From the IMG/VR virus record IMGVR_UViG_3300030037_000034, positions 1 through 35,979 of that record: a stretch of DNA of 35,979 nucleotides. One strand, written 5' to 3'. Source of the DNA: a virus. Lineage: Duplodnaviria > Caudoviricetes. Under the pieces are notes generated by a model. The model was not told where the DNA came from. It saw only the letters and a program-made list of their open reading frames with translations, and ran no database searches. Position numbers and translations under genes: made by a program. Shown in pieces: positions 1 to 35,979 of the stretch (position 1 is its first letter; every line of letters begins with the position of its first letter).

Positions 1-65
1 CTTTTGTACAAATTTAACTATATTAACAACACCAAGGTAAACAACCAAAAAAAGGAATGCACAAC

Positions 66-20721: not shown

Positions 20722-20930
20722 CAAACACACCAATAAATGTACAAATGTAAGAAAGGACAAAATACCAATTTAACAACTAGCAACTTTTTCAGATTGTCCT
20801 TTGTTTTGAACCCTAATTTTAAGATGCAAAACAAAAGAACCCCTTATAACAAGCGGCCCCAGACCCCCCACCCTGAAAAAACCAAAAAGGAAGAAAGGAC
20901 TACTTTTAAAATATTAAAACGACGCAAAGG

Positions 20931-26590: not shown

Positions 26591-27208
26591 TTATTTTGTA
26601 CTTTTGGTATTTTGTACATTTGTTGGAATAAACATTTGTACAAATATAGACGCCCTCTCATTAGTTAGATCAACAGCCGCTGAAAGCGCCAACAACTGCT
26701 TAAAAGAAACCTCCACAACATCAACAATTTCATTTGCTAGCGCTAACAATTCCTCAGGGCTATCATCTGAATCATATTTTCCATCAGCAGCCACGCCGGA
26801 ACCGGCGCTCATAACATCCGCAACCTCTCTAAACAGTGACGGCAAATCAGCCTTATACTCAGCCACCTCCATATCAACTGGCGACACATCCATAACCCCA
26901 GCTTGAGCAAAGAAATCTTTACGCGCTTTCGAACCATAAGGCTCGGGCAAAACATCAAGCCATGGCCACAACCAACAAAGAGGGATCTTTGTTTTCCCAT
27001 TCAACACTGAGTTGATTTGTCTAACCTTGGCTGAACGCCACTTCTCATAATCTTCTGCAGTTTTAGGCTCATCATCTTCAACAACCCCGCTCTCTGTCAG
27101 TGCTGGCAATAGCAACTCATGAACAAATTTAGACTGACTACATGAGCTATTTGCAATCATTTGATTAGCGTAATAAAGCAAGATTTCATCAGGCGAGTTA
27201 TGCAACAT
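26591..27208 (-). CDS. YdaT/CII-like protein
   Basis: Overlaps the cro end; QI..VLNG..K.P......W...LPEPY and DG..D..D patterns. Confidence 0.5.
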   Translation of the reverse strand: MLHNSPDEILLYYANQMIANSSCSQSKFVHELLLPALTESGVVEDDEPKTAEDYEKWRSAKVRQINSVLNGKTKIPLCWLWPWLDVLPEPYGSKARKDFFAQAGVMDVSPVDMEVAEYKADLPSLFREVADVMSAGSGVAADGKYDSDDSPEELLALANEIVDVVEVSFKQLLALSAAVDLTNERASIFVQMFIPTNVQNTKSTK

Positions 27209-27452
27209 TCTTACTATTTCCTGTAAAGTGGTCTGGGTATAAGATTTGAGTCTGAGTTAACGCACCCTTAAAATATCCAACCAATGCATCGACAACTGGA
27301 CGCCGTGGCCAAACCTTACCTCGCTCCAACAAGGACAAATATGCAGGTGTACAATTCTCACCTTGCTCCTCCATAACTTCAGACAAGTCAATCAGCCTCA
27401 TCCCCTCTTGCTTTCTCACCCTTCTTAAGGGGCTATTTTCAACACTCTCCAT
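27198..27452 (-). CDS. cro: Cro-like HTH regulator
   Basis: SPLRRVR...LS.LERG..WP XRE HTH; divergent from the repressor gene. Confidence 0.85.
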   Translation of the reverse strand: MESVENSPLRRVRKQEGMRLIDLSEVMEEQGENCTPAYLSLLERGKVWPRRPVVDALVGYFKGALTQTQILYPDHFTGNSKNVA

Positions 27453-27460
27453 ATCTAGTC

Positions 27461-27508
27461 ATTCCCGTATTCGCGATCATATATAAGAATAATAGCGGAT
27501 ACGGGAAT
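27461..27508. promoter_or_regulatory. Repressor operators and cro promoter
   Basis: Inverted 17-mers at 27461-27477 (ATTCCCGTATTCGCGAT) and 27492-27508 match 15/17. Minus strand TTGATT-16 nt-TATTAT spans the second. Confidence 0.75.
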
Positions 27509-27547
27509 TAAATCAAACTTAATATGCTTATTGGGTAAGATGTTGCT

Positions 27548-28189
27548 ATGGATATAGGATCGATAATCAGACAAGCCCGTTTAGATAGCGGCCTAGCGAT
27601 GAAAACAGTGGAAGCGGCAACAGGAATCATTGCTTCAACTCAATCTAAAATTGAGTTAGGTGAGACAGTCCAACCTGCATTTACAGTCATTGCCAGACTA
27701 GCCAAATACTACAATCTAAGTCTTGATGGTATTTACGAAGCTATGAGCACTAGTGAAAACAGCAACTTAGTTGCTGCCAATGCTAGGAAAACAATCCAAC
27801 TACCTGTTATTTCGTGGTCGAGAGCTGGAAAAAAGGGAATTACAAGGGCAGATCATGAAGGACACGTTATACCCTCGCCGTTTAATTGCTCCTCTGACGC
27901 CTACGCTTTAGAGATTAAAGATGAGAGTATGGCCTCGATTTCAGGCCAATCTAATAGCTTTCATGAGCACTCAGTTATCGTTGTGGAACCCAAAGCCAAA
28001 GCCAACCATAAAAGCCTAATTATTGTAAAAACAGAGGGCTCTACAGAGGCTACATTTAGACAGTTAATCATTGATTCTACAGGAAAACACCTTAAGCCCA
28101 TTAACCCCCAATACCCCCTATCAACACTTAACCCTAAAGACATTGTTTGCGGTGTGGTTATTGGTCAAATCCAACGCTCAGGAACATAA
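27548..28189 (+). CDS. cI: CI/CB-like prophage repressor (XRE HTH plus S24-type domain)
   Basis: HTH, PVISW..AG, YALEI..ESM, EATFRQL, LKPINPQYP. Confidence 0.92.
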   Translation: MDIGSIIRQARLDSGLAMKTVEAATGIIASTQSKIELGETVQPAFTVIARLAKYYNLSLDGIYEAMSTSENSNLVAANARKTIQLPVISWSRAGKKGITRADHEGHVIPSPFNCSSDAYALEIKDESMASISGQSNSFHEHSVIVVEPKAKANHKSLIIVKTEGSTEATFRQLIIDSTGKHLKPINPQYPLSTLNPKDIVCGVVIGQIQRSGT

Positions 28190-28286: not shown

Positions 28287-28508
28287 ATGAATACAAATGT
28301 AAGAACAAATGCACTTAAACAAATCACCAAAAAAAGAATTTGTTTATGAGGAACAGCTATCCTGGCAGATAGTTCTGTACCAAGCAGCTAGGGCAAACAA
28401 AAAAGATTGCAAACAAAACTGCAGCTTCAAATCTATTTTAGCCCTAGCCTCCTCATAAAACAACATTTTTGGTGATTTGTTTAAATGTTGATTCTTACAT
28501 TTGTTCAT
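28287..28508. repeat. Long interrupted inverted repeat (candidate structured RNA or DNA) in the repA leader
   Basis: Nested perfect stems of 13, 19 and 10 bp closing two inner hairpins. Confidence 0.8.
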
Positions 28509-28539
28509 TTGTACAAAATGACATCTGTAAGGATATTGG

Positions 28540-31500
28540 ATGCACAATAATAAATTTAAGAATTTTTATACTGAGCGTTTTGGTTCGGGGCTAGCGGTTG
28601 CAACTTATTTTGATGCAGACATTGCAGATCATGCTGCCCAAATTGGGGTTAACTGGTCTCGTGTTGTTCGTGACTTGTCTTGGAAGAACGGGAAAGAAGG
28701 CAAGGTCAACGCAAGTGGTGGAAAGCTGCTACCAAACTTTAAAGCATCGGTAGGTATTTATGCCTCACTTGAGAAAGATGATCACGGCAATGAGTTTCCT
28801 CTAGTTACTTTCAAATCCAAAGGTGGTGCCGGTGATACCGTTGTCTTCAATGGCCTTGAATACATTTGGGAGCTTTTCAAACGCGAGAAAGACGAATTTA
28901 TCCCACAAGAAAAAAGGGATGAATGGAACAAAAAGAAGGCAGAGCGCTTAGCTAAGGCCACCAAACAGCAAGAAATTGCCCGACGAAAGCAGAAAGAAGA
29001 AAACCAACGACGAGCCGCCAATGTTGCAAAAGAGCTGGCTGAGTTTGATAGGTTACCTTCCGCCGATAGCTTTGTGTACACCGATGAAAAATCCATATCC
29101 TCCATTTTTGAACATGCTAATGTTCGGACCGGATCGGATAAATACGGCAACTACATTGCACTAAAACTGCAATATATTGATGGTAGCCCTGCAGGTATTC
29201 AACGCATCTATGACCAGCACTTTACAAAGGGCAAAGGCAAACCTACAAATAAAGACTTTACATGGGGCATAGATAAAGACACTGCACACATAGTGCTAGG
29301 TGATATTACTTCTGCAGATAGAATCTATGTTGTTGAGGGTTTTGCAACTGGTGCCTCAGTATTGCTTGCCATGCAATCTATCAATATATCCTGCGCCGTG
29401 ATTGTTGCCCTTGATGCTTATAACGCGGTGAAGACTGTTGATGCTTACCAGCGCGAAAAACCATACCTACCATTGATTGCCGCCGTTGATAATGACCTTT
29501 GGAAGCAAAAAGAAGGTAAGGGCAACGCCGGTATGTTGGTTGCATTGGATCTACTTGCAGCACATAACAACGTAAAAGCTTACGCTCCACAGTTTGATTT
29601 GGTCGATCCTAGCTATAAACCAACGGATTTTAATGATCTACACACCAAGGCCGGTCTAAAAGAAGTTGCCCGACAGCTTAAAGGTAACAAGTCACGTATT
29701 AAGCTTGAAAGTGACATTTTTGAGCGGGCCTTGTGCCGGTTACAGTATGTGAATTTTCGTGCCGTACAGTCTGAGGCCGTAAAATGTGTTCAAGCAGGCA
29801 TGCAGGTTGGCCTACCAAAATACCGTCCATCTGACGTTATAGCGTTAATTCGTGACACTGCAGAAAAAGCAGGCATCCCTAAAAACTGTATTGATTTGAG
29901 CAAGTTGGCAGAGAAAGCCACCAAGATTTTCAAAGCAAAAACTCAAGACGCGCAAAACTTCCGTTCTTTCTCTAAGCGTATTACAAAAGATAGCCAGCGC
30001 CCTGAGCATATCACTTACAAGAAGTTCAATAAGGGCGTGGTTGATAACGAAGTGTTGGACTACGTTAAGTCACTCGATGGTATCGTGATTGTTCGTTTTC
30101 CGATGGGATCAGGAAAAACTCAAGGAATCATTAAGCCGGTGATGCTTGAAGCAGAAAGAGCTGCTTTTTTTGCGCATCGAGTATCCTTGATTGGTGGGGC
30201 TCATAGTAAGCTCAACGAGAATATCCCTTGGAATACATCGCCGGTAATTCACTACCAAGAAAGCGGCGTTAGTGACATGCTATCTATGTCTAATAAATTG
30301 GCTTGCTGTATTAACTCCTGTATTAAGTCAGATTTTGGCCCTTTGCTTGATAACCTCAACACCCTATTTATTGACGAAGCCTCACAAACTCTTAGACATA
30401 TAGCCTCAGGTGGCGCTGTTAAATACCCCGTTGCTGTATTCAACCGCATGTTGGGAATGATTTCATCCACTCGGGATCAAGTTATTCTAGCTGATGCGGA
30501 TGCAAACGATACGCTAGTAGAATTTTGTGAGCTGGCACTTAAGCAGCGCAATGCAATGATTGAAAGCCGATATGGTAAAGATGCTGCGAAGCTGCAAAAA
30601 ATCCATGTCATTGATGGGCACACCGATTGCTCAGACACAACTATTCACTACACCGATGCAGACAGCGCTTTTTTTAAAGTGATGGAAGATGTTGGATCCG
30701 GGCATAATGTATTAGTAGCTAACGACTCGGCCAAGGATGGGGAAAAGCTATTTTTGAGCTTGCAAGAGAAATACCCTGAAAAGAAAGGGCTATTTGTTGC
30801 ATTGGACACGAAAGAAAATGCTGATGTTGATGCTTTCACTGATGACCCCGACGGGCAAAGCCTGCAGTATGATTACCTAATTTACTCACCATCGATATCA
30901 TCCGGTGTTTCGTTAGAAAACGGCCACTTTAACAAGCACTATGGCATTTTTTGCGGATCAGTTGCCCCATCTGATGCTATACAAATGATTCGGCGTGACC
31001 GTGGCGCCAGGGAATTTGTCCTAGGCCTCTCTACTATGCATAGTAATCGTGAGGAGTCTGCTAACAATATGTGGCTCGGTTTGATTCTTGCGAACGATAA
31101 AGAGCTAAACGTAAATATTAATAAAGACGCTGGCACGATAGAAATAACGTCGAATGATTTAGATTTTGATCGCTTCCGACTTGACCTTGTAGCACAGGAA
31201 AACAAGGCCAAAAATGATTTTGCTAATAACTTGCTATGCATTCTTTTTGCGGACGGCTACAAGTTGCAAAACTTAGATACTAGCGAAATTGAGCAAGAGA
31301 TGGGCAAATCAATGAAGGACGTTGCTCGCGATATCATGAAAGCCATTGATATGACCAGGCACCTTGATCAGGACACCCCAACCGATGCTGAGCTTGAGAA
31401 CCTACTAAACAAGCCAAATCTAAGCCGCGATGAGAAAGCACAGATTAACCGCTGGAATATTGAAAAATCGTTAATGATGGATGTTAATGAGGGTAGCGTT

Positions 31501-32292
31501 GATTTTCATCATAAAGGTGGCATGGGTAAAGTTCGTCTATTTGAACTTTTGCATATGAGCGAAGAGAAAGCCCGTGATTATGATGCAAAGGAAATTGAGG
31601 CAGAGGTTGAGCCCAGTAGCCGACTGTATTTAACCAAGCAACGCGAAGCGTTGCGGAATTTTTTTGAAATTACGGGCATTGATTATCGCACTGGAAAGGG
31701 TAACGCCAGCCCTGAGTTGCTCCATAGTGCCATTTCTCATCTAATTGAGGGGGATAACATCCACCTTTTCAACAACTGGTATAAGTTCGGCGGCTATATC
31801 AATCCTTTCAGCAGAAAAATAAACACTGTTAACAAGGCTAAAAGCATCCTTGAAGCCCTTGGCCTTAAGATTGACACATTACAGTTACCACGGCTTGTAA
31901 AGGGCTCAGAGAGCCGCACACGCTACAGCATCAAGCTTGATAGCTGGAGCCTGATGATGAGCACACACCAACGCAGAATAGAGGCCGACGTCACCTCATT
32001 TAAGATTGATAACCTGGATGGTGATTTGATCCAAACATTTTCTGATATCTATATAGATACAGAAAAAAGTTTGGATCAACCACAAGCAACACAAACAAAG
32101 GCCTTTGGCTGGATAGACACACTTAAGCAAGCTGTGAAGAACCTGCATATTCCTATTGAATATGCCCCAAAGATAATGACGCGGCTTGGCAAAATGGGCG
32201 TTTTGACTCAACACGCTCCATCTGAGGGGGCGAGCGAATCAATTTCTCGGATTTATTCCGAACTTATCGGTATAGAGCAGCTTAAAAACTAA
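28540..32292 (+). CDS. repA: Replication protein RepA (TOPRIM primase plus helicase)
   Basis: 1250 aa; VVEGFATG, AVDND, TDFND (TOPRIM); PMGSGKT, AHRVSL, FIDE, SPSISSGVS (helicase). Confidence 0.93.
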   Translation: MHNNKFKNFYTERFGSGLAVATYFDADIADHAAQIGVNWSRVVRDLSWKNGKEGKVNASGGKLLPNFKASVGIYASLEKDDHGNEFPLVTFKSKGGAGDTVVFNGLEYIWELFKREKDEFIPQEKRDEWNKKKAERLAKATKQQEIARRKQKEENQRRAANVAKELAEFDRLPSADSFVYTDEKSISSIFEHANVRTGSDKYGNYIALKLQYIDGSPAGIQRIYDQHFTKGKGKPTNKDFTWGIDKDTAHIVLGDITSADRIYVVEGFATGASVLLAMQSINISCAVIVALDAYNAVKTVDAYQREKPYLPLIAAVDNDLWKQKEGKGNAGMLVALDLLAAHNNVKAYAPQFDLVDPSYKPTDFNDLHTKAGLKEVARQLKGNKSRIKLESDIFERALCRLQYVNFRAVQSEAVKCVQAGMQVGLPKYRPSDVIALIRDTAEKAGIPKNCIDLSKLAEKATKIFKAKTQDAQNFRSFSKRITKDSQRPEHITYKKFNKGVVDNEVLDYVKSLDGIVIVRFPMGSGKTQGIIKPVMLEAERAAFFAHRVSLIGGAHSKLNENIPWNTSPVIHYQESGVSDMLSMSNKLACCINSCIKSDFGPLLDNLNTLFIDEASQTLRHIASGGAVKYPVAVFNRMLGMISSTRDQVILADADANDTLVEFCELALKQRNAMIESRYGKDAAKLQKIHVIDGHTDCSDTTIHYTDADSAFFKVMEDVGSGHNVLVANDSAKDGEKLFLSLQEKYPEKKGLFVALDTKENADVDAFTDDPDGQSLQYDYLIYSPSISSGVSLENGHFNKHYGIFCGSVAPSDAIQMIRRDRGAREFVLGLSTMHSNREESANNMWLGLILANDKELNVNINKDAGTIEITSNDLDFDRFRLDLVAQENKAKNDFANNLLCILFADGYKLQNLDTSEIEQEMGKSMKDVARDIMKAIDMTRHLDQDTPTDAELENLLNKPNLSRDEKAQINRWNIEKSLMMDVNEGSVDFHHKGGMGKVRLFELLHMSEEKARDYDAKEIEAEVEPSSRLYLTKQREALRNFFEITGIDYRTGKGNASPELLHSAISHLIEGDNIHLFNNWYKFGGYINPFSRKINTVNKAKSILEALGLKIDTLQLPRLVKGSESRTRYSIKLDSWSLMMSTHQRRIEADVTSFKIDNLDGDLIQTFSDIYIDTEKSLDQPQATQTKAFGWIDTLKQAVKNLHIPIEYAPKIMTRLGKMGVLTQHAPSEGASESISRIYSELIGIEQLKN
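32026..32079. repeat. 54-bp palindrome in the repA 3' end (candidate origin)
   Basis: TTGATCCAAAC/GTTTGGATCAA arms share the axis of the perfect core TATCTATATAGATA. Confidence 0.7.
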
Positions 32293-32348: not shown

Positions 32349-32525
32349 TTATACCTGCGATATTCGCAAAAGGTCGGCGGCTTCATGTAATAAAAATAAT
32401 AGTCTCTCTACTGGTATAGGTTTTTCCTGTTCTGCAATTTCCTCTCTGACTTCTAACAATTCATGTATGCAAATATCAGCTTGTTTCTGTCGAGCCTTAC
32501 TACTAGCTCGATGGGTATATCTCAT
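32349..32525 (-). CDS. 58-aa small protein (smORF1), candidate antirepressor; absent from the supplied ORF track
   Basis: AGGGAG RBS; MRYTHRASSKARQKQADICIHELLEVREEIAEQEKPIPVERLLFLLHEAADLLRISQV; paralog of 33997-34200. Confidence 0.85.
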   Translation of the reverse strand: MRYTHRASSKARQKQADICIHELLEVREEIAEQEKPIPVERLLFLLHEAADLLRISQV

Positions 32526-32587
32526 AAAACTCCCTAAAATTCCTTTAATGGATTCACGTTTTCCTAACTAAGTTTGCCCCCATTTGT

Positions 32588-32615
32588 AGAATATGCCCTT
32601 TTAGACCCTTGTGAA
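32588..32615 (-). promoter_or_regulatory. Putative promoter of smORF1
   Basis: TTCACA-16 nt-TATTCT. Confidence 0.5.
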
Positions 32616-32624
32616 AAGGTGGAA

Positions 32625-32669
32625 AGACAAAACAGTCCTATACTTTAGATTAACCGGACAAAAGAGTCT
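32625..32669. promoter_or_regulatory. Two RGAC-N6-GTCY boxes, putative XRE binding sites
   Basis: AGACAAAACAGTCC (32625-32638) and GGACAAAAGAGTCT (32656-32669), 31 bp apart. Confidence 0.65.
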
Positions 32670-32684
32670 TAACGGGGCCAAGCT

Positions 32685-33011
32685 ATGACAAACGAACCAA
32701 TCATGTTGGCATTGATTAAGCGAAGAAAAGCCGCTGGATACTCTCAAGAGCAAGCGGCGGACATGGCTGGCCTTTCGCTTAAAACATATCAAAGGATTGA
32801 AAGCGGGACCGCAGATATACGCCTCAGAAACTATCTAACACTGATTCAAAAGATGAAACTTACAGAGCTGGATTTGGTATTAGATACATTGGATGTTGAT
32901 AATACGACGTGCTGGGATGTTGCAGCGGCTGCACGTGTATTACCAGCCGACGCTAGAGCATCTCTTGTTACTATGATAATGATGATATATAGAGACGTAA
33001 AAGAAAGGTGA
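32685..33011 (+). CDS. XRE-family HTH transcription factor
   Basis: RRKAAGYSQEQAADMAGLSLKTYQRIESG; 108 aa. Confidence 0.9.
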   Translation: MTNEPIMLALIKRRKAAGYSQEQAADMAGLSLKTYQRIESGTADIRLRNYLTLIQKMKLTELDLVLDTLDVDNTTCWDVAAAARVLPADARASLVTMIMMIYRDVKER

Positions 33012-33025
33012 GAATCATAAAATGA

Positions 33026-33388
33026 TTACAGCTTAATGAATTCCATATTTTTTTCTATATTAGTCATGGTTTCAAGCAGGTTCTGAAAATAGATATTATC
33101 AATGCCAGGTGAAAACTCGAGTCCTTCTTGCAGTGATTTAAAATGGATGTTTTTTTGGTGCATTATCTCGAGCATATGCAACAAATCTGCTAGATTGTCG
33201 CTCAGTTTATCTAGCCGCCAGATTATTAGCATATCAAGAGGCTTCAATTGACTAATCAAGGCCTTTCTCTCTGATCTCTGCCCGTAACTGTCATTATAAA
33301 TAACAGAGCAGCCACATTTTTCTAATGCTGCATTTTGGCTGTGATGATCAGGGTTTGGTGAGGTGCTTATGTATCCGTATACGATCAA
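33026..33388 (-). CDS. Degenerate serine-recombinase catalytic domain without HTH
   Basis: YGYISTS, Q..AL...GC..IY.D, L.P.D.LIIWRLDKL, I.F.SL.E; catalytic Arg residues replaced. Confidence 0.75.
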   Translation of the reverse strand: MIVYGYISTSPNPDHHSQNAALEKCGCSVIYNDSYGQRSERKALISQLKPLDMLIIWRLDKLSDNLADLLHMLEIMHQKNIHFKSLQEGLEFSPGIDNIYFQNLLETMTNIEKNMEFIKL

Positions 33389-33486
33389 AAGACATCCATT
33401 GTTTTTTGTTGGTGGTTTGTTTTAAGTATAGAGGGATATTTTTGATAAAAGGCAAACATCAGCAAGGGGATTGTTGACGATTTTAA

Positions 33487-33538
33487 AAAGTAACAATTGT
33501 TATTATGTACATTTGTACAAAATAACAATTGTTACTTT
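33487..33538. repeat. 52-bp near-perfect palindrome built from octamer units
   Basis: 24 of 26 positions pair; contains ACAATTGT-TATTATGT-ACATTTGT-ACAAAATA-ACAATTGT. Confidence 0.85.
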
Positions 33539-33567
33539 GTTTGTTTATAAGAGTAAAACCCTGTTTT

Positions 33568-33948
33568 TTAGCTTACTAACTCTTTGGTATATCTAAAGCG
33601 TGTACCATTTAATATATCTGACTGGCACATTGAGGGCGTGACTTGGGTGGCGTCACTTTTTAGCAAAAGTATGGCGGCGCGAACTTCGTTCTCTTTGTAA
33701 GCAAAGGTTTTCATTTCGTGACCGACTTCTGCAGTGTGTAGATAGTCGAAGGTGGATACGCCGCAAGTAAACATGGTTAATCTAAATACCTTCTCAGATA
33801 GCCCTAGTCCGTATATAAAGTGAGCGTCTTTTTTTGAGAGATACCCATCAGGTATTTCAGCCTTATTTCTAAGCTCAATTTTATTATTTATAACCGAATA
33901 TGTACTATTAAACATTTGTACAAATGTACTTTTTAACAAATCAATCAT
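33568..33948 (-). CDS. Hypothetical protein
   Basis: 126 aa, GGAG upstream; directly downstream of smORF2. Confidence 0.65.
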   Translation of the reverse strand: MIDLLKSTFVQMFNSTYSVINNKIELRNKAEIPDGYLSKKDAHFIYGLGLSEKVFRLTMFTCGVSTFDYLHTAEVGHEMKTFAYKENEVRAAILLLKSDATQVTPSMCQSDILNGTRFRYTKELVS

Positions 33949-33996
33949 TCAATAAGCTCCGCAATAATTGGGAAATTTGTTTCTTCTTTTCGGTCG

Positions 33997-34200
33997 TTAT
34001 GACTTTTGGCCGTTCATTTGTATATGCAAAAGGTCAGCGGCCTCATGTAGTAAAAATAGAATTTTTTCGGTGGGAACCTCTTGTTTTGAGTTTAGAGCGG
34101 TAATGGTATCGAGCCTGGTTTTCAGTAGTTCATTGATACAGGTTTTTGCCTGCTTTTTCAAAGCAGTGCCATCCTCATTTTGTAACGTGATATAGAGCAT
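33997..34200 (-). CDS. 67-aa small protein (smORF2), candidate SOS-controlled antirepressor
   Basis: GAGG 6 nt before ATG34200; shares KQA..CI.ELL..R and P.E..LFLLHEAADLL.I with smORF1. Confidence 0.85.
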   Translation of the reverse strand: MLYITLQNEDGTALKKQAKTCINELLKTRLDTITALNSKQEVPTEKILFLLHEAADLLHIQMNGQKS

Positions 34201-34354
34201 AGTTAGCCTCATTCCATAAGCGCTAAAAATTGAAAAGACAAAATACGTTTGAATGTATGGGGATCTTGCGGGGGAGCTATGATCACCTGATATACAAAAA
34301 CATACTGGTTAACGTGGTTTGGCGGGGGGCCAATAGGTGATCACGTATGTGGTT

Positions 34355-34388
34355 ATTATACCAAGGAGAGCACTGTAAATACAACCAG
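34355..34388 (-). promoter_or_regulatory. Sigma70 promoter with a LexA (SOS) box over the -35
   Basis: TTGTAT-18 nt-TATAAT with TGn extension; CTGTAAATACAACCAG (34373-34388) is CTG-N10-CAG. Confidence 0.85.
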
Positions 34389-34440
34389 TACTCTCCTATA
34401 TTACCGCATAGTAAACATGCCTAACTATGCTTGCTTTCTC

Positions 34441-35925
34441 TTACTCCTCGGCGTCAATGTTAGCCTGAAAGTTAGATATTTCAACGAATTCATCAAGGTA
34501 TTTTTTTACGGTGTTGTGGTTTAGCTGCTTGCCATCAATTAAGCAGTGACGACGAATGTATGAGGCGGTAATTTCATTGTGTGGCAGTCCGTTATCAGAA
34601 ACCTCTGTTTTTAGCCAGTTGTGAACAATCTGCATTTTGGGGGCTCGCGTGTAGTCCATAATCTTACTATCGGCTTTTTCTAAGTACTCGATAAGATCAT
34701 TACTAACTACCGGTTTAGCATTTCCTTTTGGTTCTTCTTGGTCAGCTGATAATTCTATAGTCTTAACGGATTCACTTATCTGAAAGGCCTCATAGTGTAG
34801 CTGAGTTTCAATCATAGAGTGGCCCAAAACACGGTGTCTGTAAGCTGACCTGGCTTCGCCTGGAAGCTTATGATTTTCATAAGTGATTTCTGTATATAGC
34901 GCTCTACAGTCTTTTAGCGAAAAATTGCCGTTTTGGAGATTCATTCTTACAGCAGAGTTCATTGTTCGTTCGTATTTTCGGTGTACAGCCTTATTGTGGT
35001 CATAGTCTTTAATATCGCCATCCTTTACCATGCTCTCTACTTCATTTCCCTGTACATCAGTAAATTTTAGCTTATCCTTTCTTGTGGCCTTTCTCAGTGT
35101 TTTAAAGGCCTGCAGGACGATTTTGGCGTCTATTAGGGTTGGTATGTTGTAAGGTTTTACAGATTCGAATAGGTGTCTATTTTTCGTCTTGAGCTGGCCG
35201 CTGAACAAAAGCGTTCTATCATCAACCATTTTAACTTTTGCGGTTTTCATTATCTCCGTAAGCCTGCGACCAGTTGATAGCGCTAAGCCAACACATAGAT
35301 CACTATCTGATGGGCTTTCTTTTGTTAAAAGGATTAATGATAAATCCTTGATCCACTTAGGATTAACAACTATTTGATTGTGTAATTTTTTGCTTAGCTG
35401 CTTTGAATCGTCGTCTTTTATCCAGTCCTTAACAGCTCCTTTTGGTTCAAAAAGATAGTATGAATGATGTTCTACATTCAGCGATAAAAGATCTTTTTTA
35501 TATTCTGATCCTGTTATTGAGTCTGCTCTTAATAAAATAATGTTATCCCTAAGCTTTTCTATTGGTAGCGAGGGATCTAGCATCTTTACAATCTCTGGCT
35601 TTTTATCCTTATATTTGCGTATGAAAACGTTAATATGATAATCGATTGAATGGTGCTTAAGGTTTAGTGACTTTATTGCATTTCTATAGGTTTCCATGAG
35701 ATGGGAGTAATATCTATAGGAACATGCTGGCTCACTTTTAAGATCTCCCGTCTTTTTATCAACTATAACACCCAATGATTTGTGCTCTCTTCTGGCAATA
35801 GCATTGCATCTGTCTGTTATATATTTACCTGACCCTTTCTCCTTATCATTAGCTATTTTTTGAATGTGGCGAATATCATTTACAATTTCTTTTACTCTAT
35901 TTTTTGATGACTTTGAACCATTCAT
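34441..35925 (-). CDS. telN: Protelomerase (telomere resolvase)
   Basis: TGRR..EI, FSGQLK, KDCRA.Y, LGH....TQ.HY catalytic motifs; GGAGG 8 nt before ATG35925. Confidence 0.95.
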   Translation of the reverse strand: MNGSKSSKNRVKEIVNDIRHIQKIANDKEKGSGKYITDRCNAIARREHKSLGVIVDKKTGDLKSEPACSYRYYSHLMETYRNAIKSLNLKHHSIDYHINVFIRKYKDKKPEIVKMLDPSLPIEKLRDNIILLRADSITGSEYKKDLLSLNVEHHSYYLFEPKGAVKDWIKDDDSKQLSKKLHNQIVVNPKWIKDLSLILLTKESPSDSDLCVGLALSTGRRLTEIMKTAKVKMVDDRTLLFSGQLKTKNRHLFESVKPYNIPTLIDAKIVLQAFKTLRKATRKDKLKFTDVQGNEVESMVKDGDIKDYDHNKAVHRKYERTMNSAVRMNLQNGNFSLKDCRALYTEITYENHKLPGEARSAYRHRVLGHSMIETQLHYEAFQISESVKTIELSADQEEPKGNAKPVVSNDLIEYLEKADSKIMDYTRAPKMQIVHNWLKTEVSDNGLPHNEITASYIRRHCLIDGKQLNHNTVKKYLDEFVEISNFQANIDAEE

Positions 35926-35979
35926 AGCAACAACCTCCAAACTGTTTAACTGTACACGCATCCTAGCACTGGATTTCTA

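What the first reader, a model, noticed from the sequence alone, without database searches (positions are those of the whole stretch)
32349..34388. Duplicated small antirepressor candidates wired to two different inputs (XRE regulator and LexA)
Seen: smORF1 (32349-32525) and smORF2 (33997-34200) share KQA..CI.ELL..R and an identical LFLLHEAADLL block. Its 11 codons differ at 4 positions, all synonymous, which points to selection on the protein. smORF1 is divergent from an XRE gene; smORF2 is behind a LexA-box promoter. Established: VP882 carries VqmA-phage and the small antirepressor Qtip between repA and telN, related linear phages carry regulator/small-ORF modules there, and N15 uses the LexA-controlled antirepressor AntC. 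Inference: one antirepressor family has been duplicated to give an OR gate (SOS or an unknown second signal) acting on a repressor that may not self-cleave. I do not know of this combination being described, but cannot search.
Basis: partly seen in the sequence, partly recalled or inferred. Interest (0 to 1): 0.92.

Follow-up and report, generated by a model that had tools for sequence, protein, structure and literature searches.

The report
Twin phage antirepressors, one LexA-boxed
A marine linear-plasmid phage carries two old copies of a small gene related to a proven repressor-blocking protein, one facing its own regulator and one behind a host DNA-damage (LexA) site, while its repressor lacks the lysine needed to cut itself, so either signal would likely wake the phage.

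Summary
Observation confirmed. The window is a telomere (linear plasmid) phage. smORF1 and smORF2 are old sister paralogues under purifying selection, in a 41-protein helical-hairpin family that includes, distantly, smORF72, the tested antirepressor of Vibrio phage 72. smORF1 faces a TF72-like XRE gene across a conserved operator pair: a known TF-smORF module. smORF2 sits behind the window's only good LexA box. The same pairing occurs in 3 of 7 relatives with a complete locus, including phage 72 itself, whose unremarked 165-nt ORF is a LexA-boxed family member (boxes: 4 of 4 extra copies, 0 of 7 TF-facing). The window's CI alone (1 of 20) has Arg for the catalytic Lys and a decayed cleavage loop. 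Best reading (0.5): an OR gate in which smORF2 has taken over SOS induction. Against: the other three two-copy phages have intact CIs, so the predicted link to Arg-type CI fails, and the phage 72 paper says the 165-nt ORF did not cause lysis, though its figure legend names a phage 63 gene. Binding is untested. Earlier scan notes found single LexA-boxed small ORFs in this slot on other DNA, not this pair. New variant of a known kind.

The parts
27198..27452 (-). cro-like gene, first gene of the lytic operon that CI would repress
   Evidence: HTH; 38-54% identical to the gene in the same place in 7 relatives
27548..28189 (+). CI repressor, HTH + S24 domain. Ser127 and Ala93-Gly94 kept; catalytic Lys replaced by Arg171 (28058-28060); cleavage loop and Ser motif decayed
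   Evidence: 13 of 48 conserved C-terminal columns broken against 1 of 29 N-terminal; Fisher p 0.013
28540..32292 (+). repA (primase-helicase) of a linear plasmid phage
   Evidence: phrog_4913; 34% to VP882 RepA
32349..32525 (-). smORF1, TF-facing copy of the smORF72-related family; likely antirepressor
32626..32673 (+). two GAC-N6-GTC-type sites 31 nt apart between smORF1 and the XRE gene; likely XRE operators
   Evidence: aligned in 6 of 6 intergenic regions; direct repeat D17; (pattern taken from this alignment, so partly circular)
32685..33011 (+). XRE transcription factor of the TF72/TF63 kind
   Evidence: 35.5% to TF72 over 107 aa; 66-69% to the XREs of L015 and L018
33026..33388 (-). 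stand-alone resolvase-N-like protein, convergent on the XRE gene; no DNA-binding domain, catalytic motif not conserved
   Evidence: PF00239 E 3e-12; alignment of 6 such neighbours
33568..33948 (-). orf126, directly downstream of smORF2, possibly co-transcribed; absent from relatives; weak model likeness to C-terminal parts of Rha/KilA-N/Bro-N proteins
   Evidence: no family hit; TM 0.55-0.64, under the tool's bar
33997..34200 (-). smORF2, LexA-boxed copy; predicted two-helix hairpin (12-37, 44-63); likely SOS-induced antirepressor
   Evidence: (pLDDT 83.6)
34355..34363 (-). extended -10 element (TGG-TATAAT) of the likely smORF2 promoter
   Evidence: sequence
34373..34388 (.). LexA box over the expected -35 position of the smORF2 promoter
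   Evidence: only site within 7 mismatches of consensus in the window; same position class in L016, phage 72 and L152
34441..35961 (-). telN protelomerase
   Evidence: PF16684

Best explanation
The phage carries two paralogous small helical-hairpin genes of the smORF72 family that likely both encode antirepressors of its CI, one likely switched on by the neighbouring XRE protein and one likely held off by host LexA, and because the CI has Arg in place of its catalytic Lys and is predicted not to cut itself, DNA damage would induce the phage through smORF2. Shown by sequence and calls: paralogy, purifying selection, family membership, gene layout, the LexA-type box over a promoter, and the CI lesions. 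Inferred from phage 72: the XRE activates smORF1 and the protein inactivates CI without cleaving it. Inferred from VP882 Qtip by analogy only: it binds the N-terminal DNA-binding domain. Inferred here: smORF2 has the same target, either copy suffices (OR logic), and a LexA-boxed copy made self-cleavage dispensable. In relatives with a cleavable CI the LexA copy would be a booster or backup. The signal for the XRE is unknown; the convergent resolvase-like protein is my candidate for its regulator (speculative).
For: (1) Family: 41 proteins at E <= 0.01 among 6525 candidates. smORF72 scores 13.3 bits against a profile built without it, 0 of 1000 shuffles reach this (max 8.3). With both phage 72 copies left out it ranks 2nd of 223 segments tested, behind the 165-nt ORF. 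L143 is phage 72. smORF72 relieves cI72 repression without cleavage and TF72 activates it 28-fold (PMC10432266, sections read). (2) Wiring: of 8 complete repA-telN intervals (window, L011, L015, L016, L018, L143, L152, L153), 7 hold the family and 4 hold two copies. A box within 5 mismatches lies before 4 of 4 extra copies and 0 of 7 TF-facing copies; chance per region <= 5e-4. The box is kept between phage 72 and L152 while the spacer downstream of it diverges. (3) CI: Arg at the Lys column in 1 of 20 aligned CIs; K172A at that column abolishes cleavage of cI-VP882 (bioRxiv 2019.12.16.877910, passages; column match). Decay is confined to the C-terminal domain, 13 of 48 against 1 of 29, p 0.013. 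(4) smORF1 and smORF2 are each other's best match among 45 sequences and sisters at 96/97 support, as expected if both track one target. In L152 both copies carry Thr at the same otherwise-Ala motif position, a single weak hint of a shared partner.
Against: (1) PMC10432266 states in the text that the 165-nt ORF of the repA-telN interval did not drive lysis. The cited figure legend and source data name a phage 63 gene instead, and I found no such construct in the oligo and plasmid tables, so whether the phage 72 paralogue was tested is open. If it was, this is direct evidence against. (2) 3 of 4 two-copy phages have canonical CIs, so the LexA copy did not arise because of a dead CI. (3) L011's CI has lost the Ala-Gly site yet its locus has one copy and no box (record only 27% complete). 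(4) smORF72 is the most distant family member (30% to smORF1, 23% to smORF2), so function is transferred over a long distance. (5) Ser127 and Ala93-Gly94 are kept, and the Lys-to-Arg change was not tested; that such a change cripples LexA is recalled, my paper search did not retrieve it. (6) Phage 72 and L152 are relatives (CI 82%), so the four cases are about three independent ones; the Arg CI is one genome.
Confidence: 0.5

Rival explanations
1. The CI still cleaves itself, slowly, and smORF2 is only a booster or backup of SOS induction, as it would be in phage 72 and L016.
For: Ser127 and Ala93-Gly94 kept; 3 of 4 two-copy phages have canonical CIs.
Against: Lys lost plus 12 further changes at conserved C-terminal columns, clustered at the cleavage loop and Ser motif, against 1 in the N-terminal domain.
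Confidence: 0.15
2. The LexA-boxed copy acts in trans on repressors of other, co-resident prophages, like the Salmonella Gifsy and Fels-1 antirepressors, and not on its own CI.
For: In phage 72 the LexA copy keeps the family motif while smORF72 has drifted (23% identical); the paper's text reports no lysis by the 165-nt ORF; non-cognate antirepression is known (PMC3121763, abstract and passages).
Against: The window's two copies are sisters with an identical core; smORF72 and smORF63 are strictly cognate-specific; a phage with a dead CI protease would then have no evident SOS route.
Confidence: 0.15
3. The LexA-boxed copy is a damper: it binds CI or pairs with the TF-driven copy without releasing repression, or blocks cleavage, and so tunes rather than triggers induction.
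For: Qtip binding blocks cI-VP882 autoproteolysis; the reported negative result for the 165-nt ORF.
Against: LexA-controlled small phage proteins beside repressors (Tum, AntC, GfoA, Sar, AimX) promote induction; with a dead CI protease there is no cleavage to damp.
Confidence: 0.1
4. The SOS effector is orf126, downstream of smORF2 in the same LexA-controlled unit, with smORF2 a passenger.
For: 49 nt behind smORF2 on the same strand; weak model likeness to C-terminal parts of Rha/KilA-N/Bro-N proteins.
Against: All scores under the tool's bar; orf126 is absent from the three other LexA-boxed loci, where the smORF alone follows the box.
Confidence: 0.07

Closest known systems
TF72-smORF72 module of Vibrio 1F-97 phage 72 (Silpe et al. 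2023, PMC10432266)
   Same: XRE-type TF divergent from a small ORF between repA and telN; TF 35.5% and CI 38% identical; smORF1 and smORF2 are distant relatives of smORF72. Phage 72 has the same order: telN, LexA box, paralogue, TF, smORF, repA.
   Different: cI72 is cleavable; the window's CI has lost its Lys. The paper does not describe the second ORF as a paralogue or mention its LexA box, and it excluded phages with non-proteolytic CIs.
VqmA-phage/Qtip of VP882
   Same: Same genomic slot and logic: TF drives a small antirepressor; CI of the same broad family (32%).
   Different: No sequence similarity to Qtip; XRE instead of a quorum-sensing receptor; VP882 has one antirepressor, a cleavable CI and no box in the stretch examined.
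N15 CB repressor with AntC (SOS) and AntA (immA)
   Same: Telomere phage with a non-proteolytic repressor and two antirepressor loci under different control (PMC4488713 passages; PMC10432266).
   Different: AntA and AntC are unrelated proteins far apart (recalled); here two paralogues of one family lie 1.5 kb apart and the second input is an XRE activator.
LexA-controlled antirepressors Tum (186), GfoA/GftA (Gifsy), Sar (SPbeta-like)
   Same: Small protein behind a LexA box beside a repressor that does not cleave.
   Different: Single SOS input, no TF-driven twin; Gifsy repressors are short and lack the protease domain, whereas this CI keeps a decayed one.
AimX of extended arbitrium systems (bioRxiv 2025.11.23.689978)
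   Same: An activator and LexA both feed a small antirepressor.
   Different: One gene with both inputs on one transcript (both required); here two genes with one input each, which predicts either-or logic.

Membership tests
TF-smORF modules of linear plasmid phages (smORF1 + XRE) | Linear plasmid-like phage with convergent repA and telN | tested here: met
TF-smORF modules of linear plasmid phages (smORF1 + XRE) | TF gene divergent from a small ORF | tested here: met
   32685-33011 (+) against 32349-32525 (-); same in 6 relatives
TF-smORF modules of linear plasmid phages (smORF1 + XRE) | TF activates the smORF promoter | not testable with these tools
   conserved operator-like pair only
TF-smORF modules of linear plasmid phages (smORF1 + XRE) | smORF inactivates the cognate CI without proteolysis | not testable with these tools
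   shown for smORF72 only
TF-smORF modules of linear plasmid phages (smORF1 + XRE) | Autoproteolytic CI (the filter used in the defining paper) | tested here: not met
   Arg171 for Lys, decayed loop; a search filter rather than a property of the module
smORF72 protein family | Sequence homology to smORF72 | tested here: met
   weak but above all controls: 13.3 bits, 0 of 1000 shuffles; 2nd of 223 segments; shared L, LH.A.D columns
Qtip family | Sequence homology to Qtip | tested here: not met
   -1.4 bits; hhalign probability 0.1
LexA-controlled antirepressors (AntC/Tum/GfoA type; smORF2) | LexA box at the promoter | tested here: met
   (sequence only)
LexA-controlled antirepressors (AntC/Tum/GfoA type; smORF2) | Partner repressor unable to self-cleave | tested here: inconclusive
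   Lys lost, Ser and Ala-Gly kept; no assay
LexA-controlled antirepressors (AntC/Tum/GfoA type; smORF2) | SOS-induced transcription and binding to the repressor | not testable with these tools
   needs reporter and pull-down assays

The most novel reading that the evidence does not exclude
Linear phages of this group have more than once duplicated their 'SOS-independent' antirepressor and put the copy under LexA. The model phage 72 carries such an overlooked SOS copy, and this genome shows the next step: the repressor's self-cleavage has decayed and both routes to lysis now run through twin antirepressors. It is a snapshot of how a lambda-type cleavable switch turns into an N15-type antirepressor switch.
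Probability: 0.4. Interest if true: 0.8.

Novelty: new variant of a known kind. Interest (0 to 1): 0.64.

Why it matters
If true it shows a route from cleavable to antirepressor-controlled prophage switches, with intermediates at hand: one copy and a cleavable CI, two copies and a cleavable CI, two copies and a dead protease. It also makes a sharp prediction in a published system: the 165-nt ORF of phage 72, set aside as inactive, is a LexA-boxed paralogue of smORF72, and existing reporter plasmids can test it. The smORFs were described as lacking homologues; this gives smORF72 a family of about 40 proteins with a conserved core to mutate.

Tried and rejected
Single-sequence searches with smORF2 found only itself, itself plus smORF1 and a repetitive false hit, and a chance plasmid hit; no Pfam, PHROG or NCBIfam family. 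Foldseek of the hairpin model: no match at E <= 0.001. Complex prediction of CI with smORF2: no answer, score 0.09 against a mark of 0.32, controls not folded; no evidence either way. No RNA holder listed; the one DNA run matches the window but may be its source, as may L060 (1 difference in 17432 nt). The genome-contig scan returned only 41 unrelated HTH loci; of 80 metagenome loci only L060-L062 were close. XRE scan of viral contigs found nothing; no close CI in plasmids. Of 8 back-translation hits, 4 were family loci, L010 a chance hit in a 228-aa frame and 3 showed no in-frame motif. L017 was left out of the tally (record ends inside repA). Rejected: the 4-of-4 synonymous count as proof of selection (circular; replaced); Qtip homology; the link between two copies and Arg-type CI; the palindrome at 33487-33538 as the telomere site (centre not symmetric; it belongs to a dispersed motif); one common origin of all LexA copies (AU p 0.006 on 25 of 45 rows, but 3 of the 6 rows were assigned by similarity only and after I had seen a first tree, and alignments are short). 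Small ORFs beside related XREs in H905, K303, MAR and ARM81ld do not match the family.

Full report
Setting. The window is a nearly complete virus record of 35,979 bases (94% by CheckV) with parA, head and tail genes, Q, a cII-like gene, cro, cI, repA and telN: a linear plasmid (telomere) phage. CI relatives with names come from Vibrio, Photobacterium and Shewanella. Between repA and telN lie smORF1 (-), an XRE gene (+), a resolvase-N-like gene (-), orf126 (-), smORF2 (-) and a LexA-type box.

Observation. All stated features are present. The two ORFs align far above chance (score 109, 0 of 2000 shuffles). The four synonymous changes in the shared block are real but circular as evidence. Over all 45 aligned codons synonymous sites are saturated (pS 0.83) while pN is 0.30, so both copies are old and under selection. 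A profile finds exactly two copies in the genome. The box at 34373-34388 is the only site within 7 mismatches of a recalled consensus and covers the expected -35 position of a promoter with an extended -10 at 34355-34363; the generic promoter scan missed it.

The family. Scans with TelN, CI, RepA and a back-translated motif gave eight related records. A nine-sequence profile found 41 proteins among 6525 candidates; invariant columns are a Leu in helix 1 and L-H-x-A-x-D in helix 2. AlphaFold gives smORF2 a two-helix hairpin at pLDDT 83.6, with no solved match. A qPCR primer from the supplement of Silpe et al. 2023 retrieved phage 72 (L143). Its smORF agrees by eye with the published gene block and is filed under Vibrio sp. 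1F_97. smORF72 is a distant member: 13.3 bits against a profile built without it, above all 1000 shuffles, and second of 223 segments when both phage 72 copies are left out; Qtip and the small ORFs of K303, H905, ARM81ld and MAR score at most 0.1 bits. smORF72 is shown to relieve cI72 repression without cleavage, to be activated by TF72 and not by ciprofloxacin. The window's XRE is 35.5% identical to TF72, and a pair of operator-like sites lies before it in 6 of 6 aligned regions. smORF1 plus XRE is therefore an ordinary TF-smORF module.

The second copy recurs. Of 8 complete repA-telN intervals, L153 lacks the family, three (L011, L015, L018) have one TF-facing copy, and four (window, L016, phage 72, L152) have two. 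A LexA-type box lies 74-172 nt before 4 of 4 extra copies and before 0 of 7 TF-facing copies; resampling gives at most 5 in 10,000 per region. In phage 72 the extra copy is a 165-nt ORF, and its box is the only exact CTGT-N8-ACAG site in 36.6 kb. The paper's text says an additional 165-nt ORF did not drive lysis, but the cited legend and source data name a phage 63 gene, and the oligo and plasmid tables list no such construct. I cannot tell which gene was tested. LexA appears in that paper's main text only in a reference title. Phage 72 and L152 are close (CI 82%), so there are about three independent cases, in two layouts (tandem in L016; extra copy on the telN side of the TF in the others). 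The window's two copies are sisters (96/97 on 25 of 45 rows; in the 45-row tree the long smORF72 branch falls inside that group), and one clade of all LexA copies is rejected (p 0.006, with the caveats under Tried and rejected). Repeated duplication, or co-evolution of both copies with one CI, fits.

The repressor. Among 20 aligned CIs (some near-duplicates) only the window's has Arg at the catalytic Lys column, the column of VP882 K172, whose Ala mutant does not cleave. It breaks 13 of 48 conserved C-terminal columns, clustered at the cleavage loop (V91S, Q92R, loss of Trp, E96K) and the Ser motif (G125D, D126E), but 1 of 29 N-terminal columns (p 0.013). Ser127 and Ala93-Gly94 remain. A second record and one run's contig carry the same letters but may share the window's source. 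Two more distant CIs (P0011, L011) have lost the Ala-Gly site, and L011 shows no LexA copy in a 27%-complete record.

Mechanism. Most likely (0.5) both proteins inactivate this CI, smORF1 on an unknown signal through the XRE and smORF2 on DNA damage through LexA, and the LexA copy let self-cleavage decay. The order of events is inferred, not shown. Rivals: residual cleavage with a booster (0.15), action on other prophages' repressors (0.15), a damper (0.1), orf126 as the SOS effector (0.07).

What is known. TF-smORF modules, LexA-controlled antirepressors, two unrelated antirepressors in N15, and dual control of one antirepressor gene (AimX) are all in print. I found no description of paralogous antirepressors split between an activator and LexA, or of the phage 72 box, in searches of an open-licence library that lacks most subscription papers. 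Papers seen: PMC10432266 (parts 1-3 of 10, extended-data legends part 1, keyword passages, supplementary files 21 whole and 1-12, 16, 17, 20, 22 by keyword; figures not visible, and they may bear on the 165-nt question); its preprint (keyword passages; supplements closed); bioRxiv 2019.12.16.877910 (abstract, passages); PMC4488713, PMC3121763, PMC11323111, PMC12802170 (passages); bioRxiv 2025.11.23.689978 (abstract, passages); 2025.11.27.690993 (abstract); 2026.07.27.740977 (keyword search, no hits). Mardanov and Ravin 2007 was seen only as cited. Five earlier scan notes describe single LexA-boxed small ORFs in this slot beside non-cleaving repressors in Pseudomonas and Halomonas-type phages; I did not test them, and none reports a TF-driven twin (one search found nothing).

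Verdict. Interest 0.64.

Noticed in passing
L143:2172-2460 (phage 72): The 165-nt ORF of phage 72 is a paralogue of smORF72 behind a LexA box. The paper's text and its figure legend disagree on which gene was the negative control. The published PsmORF72-lux gene block includes this box and ORF.
   Followed up: yes
window 33026-33388; L015, L018, L011, L003, L004: A stand-alone resolvase-N-like protein with a variable catalytic motif sits convergent on one subfamily of the XRE in 6 loci, including two unrelated phages, and is absent beside TF72-type XREs (L016, L143, L152) and in MAR. Candidate regulator or sensor of the TF.
   Followed up: partly
L140:9671-10586 (Vibrio phage vB_VpaM_MAR): An unannotated 74-aa ORF of another family, divergent from a related XRE, has a near-consensus LexA box (9942, 3 mismatches) about 47 nt before its start, with a canonical CI: one small ORF with both inputs. 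The same ORF is in VHML, where my pattern found no box.
   Followed up: partly
window 5-17, 20738-20751, 26613-26650, 28495-28515, 33487-33538, 33909-33930: A dispersed TGTACA-based motif, 18 strand matches against 2.5 expected, mostly near gene starts (parA, terminase region, Q, repA) with a 52-bp palindrome at 33487-33538; a similar run precedes VP882 parA. Likely partition (centromere-like) or operator sites.
   Followed up: partly
window 34363-34397: The LexA box is flanked by longer inverted arms (about 12 bp each), so it could also fold as a hairpin just downstream of telN.
   Followed up: no
window 27462-27510: An inverted pair of TTCCCGTAT-type sites between cro and cI, likely CI operators.
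   Followed up: no
window 34441-35961: TelN is 506 aa and lacks the acidic C-terminal extension (about 130 aa) of its relatives (631-677 aa); the smORF2-orf126 block sits where that tail would be.
   Followed up: no
L011:3127-3744 and P0011: Two other CIs of this group have lost the Ala-Gly cleavage site while keeping Ser and Lys: separate losses of cleavability. P0011 shares its longest-contig length (40105) with family member P0050.
   Followed up: partly
L003:10207, 11874; L004:11772: Near-consensus LexA boxes in Aliivibrio phage H905 and Vibrio phage K303, a few kb from their XRE-smORF modules, beside small unannotated-function ORFs.
   Followed up: no
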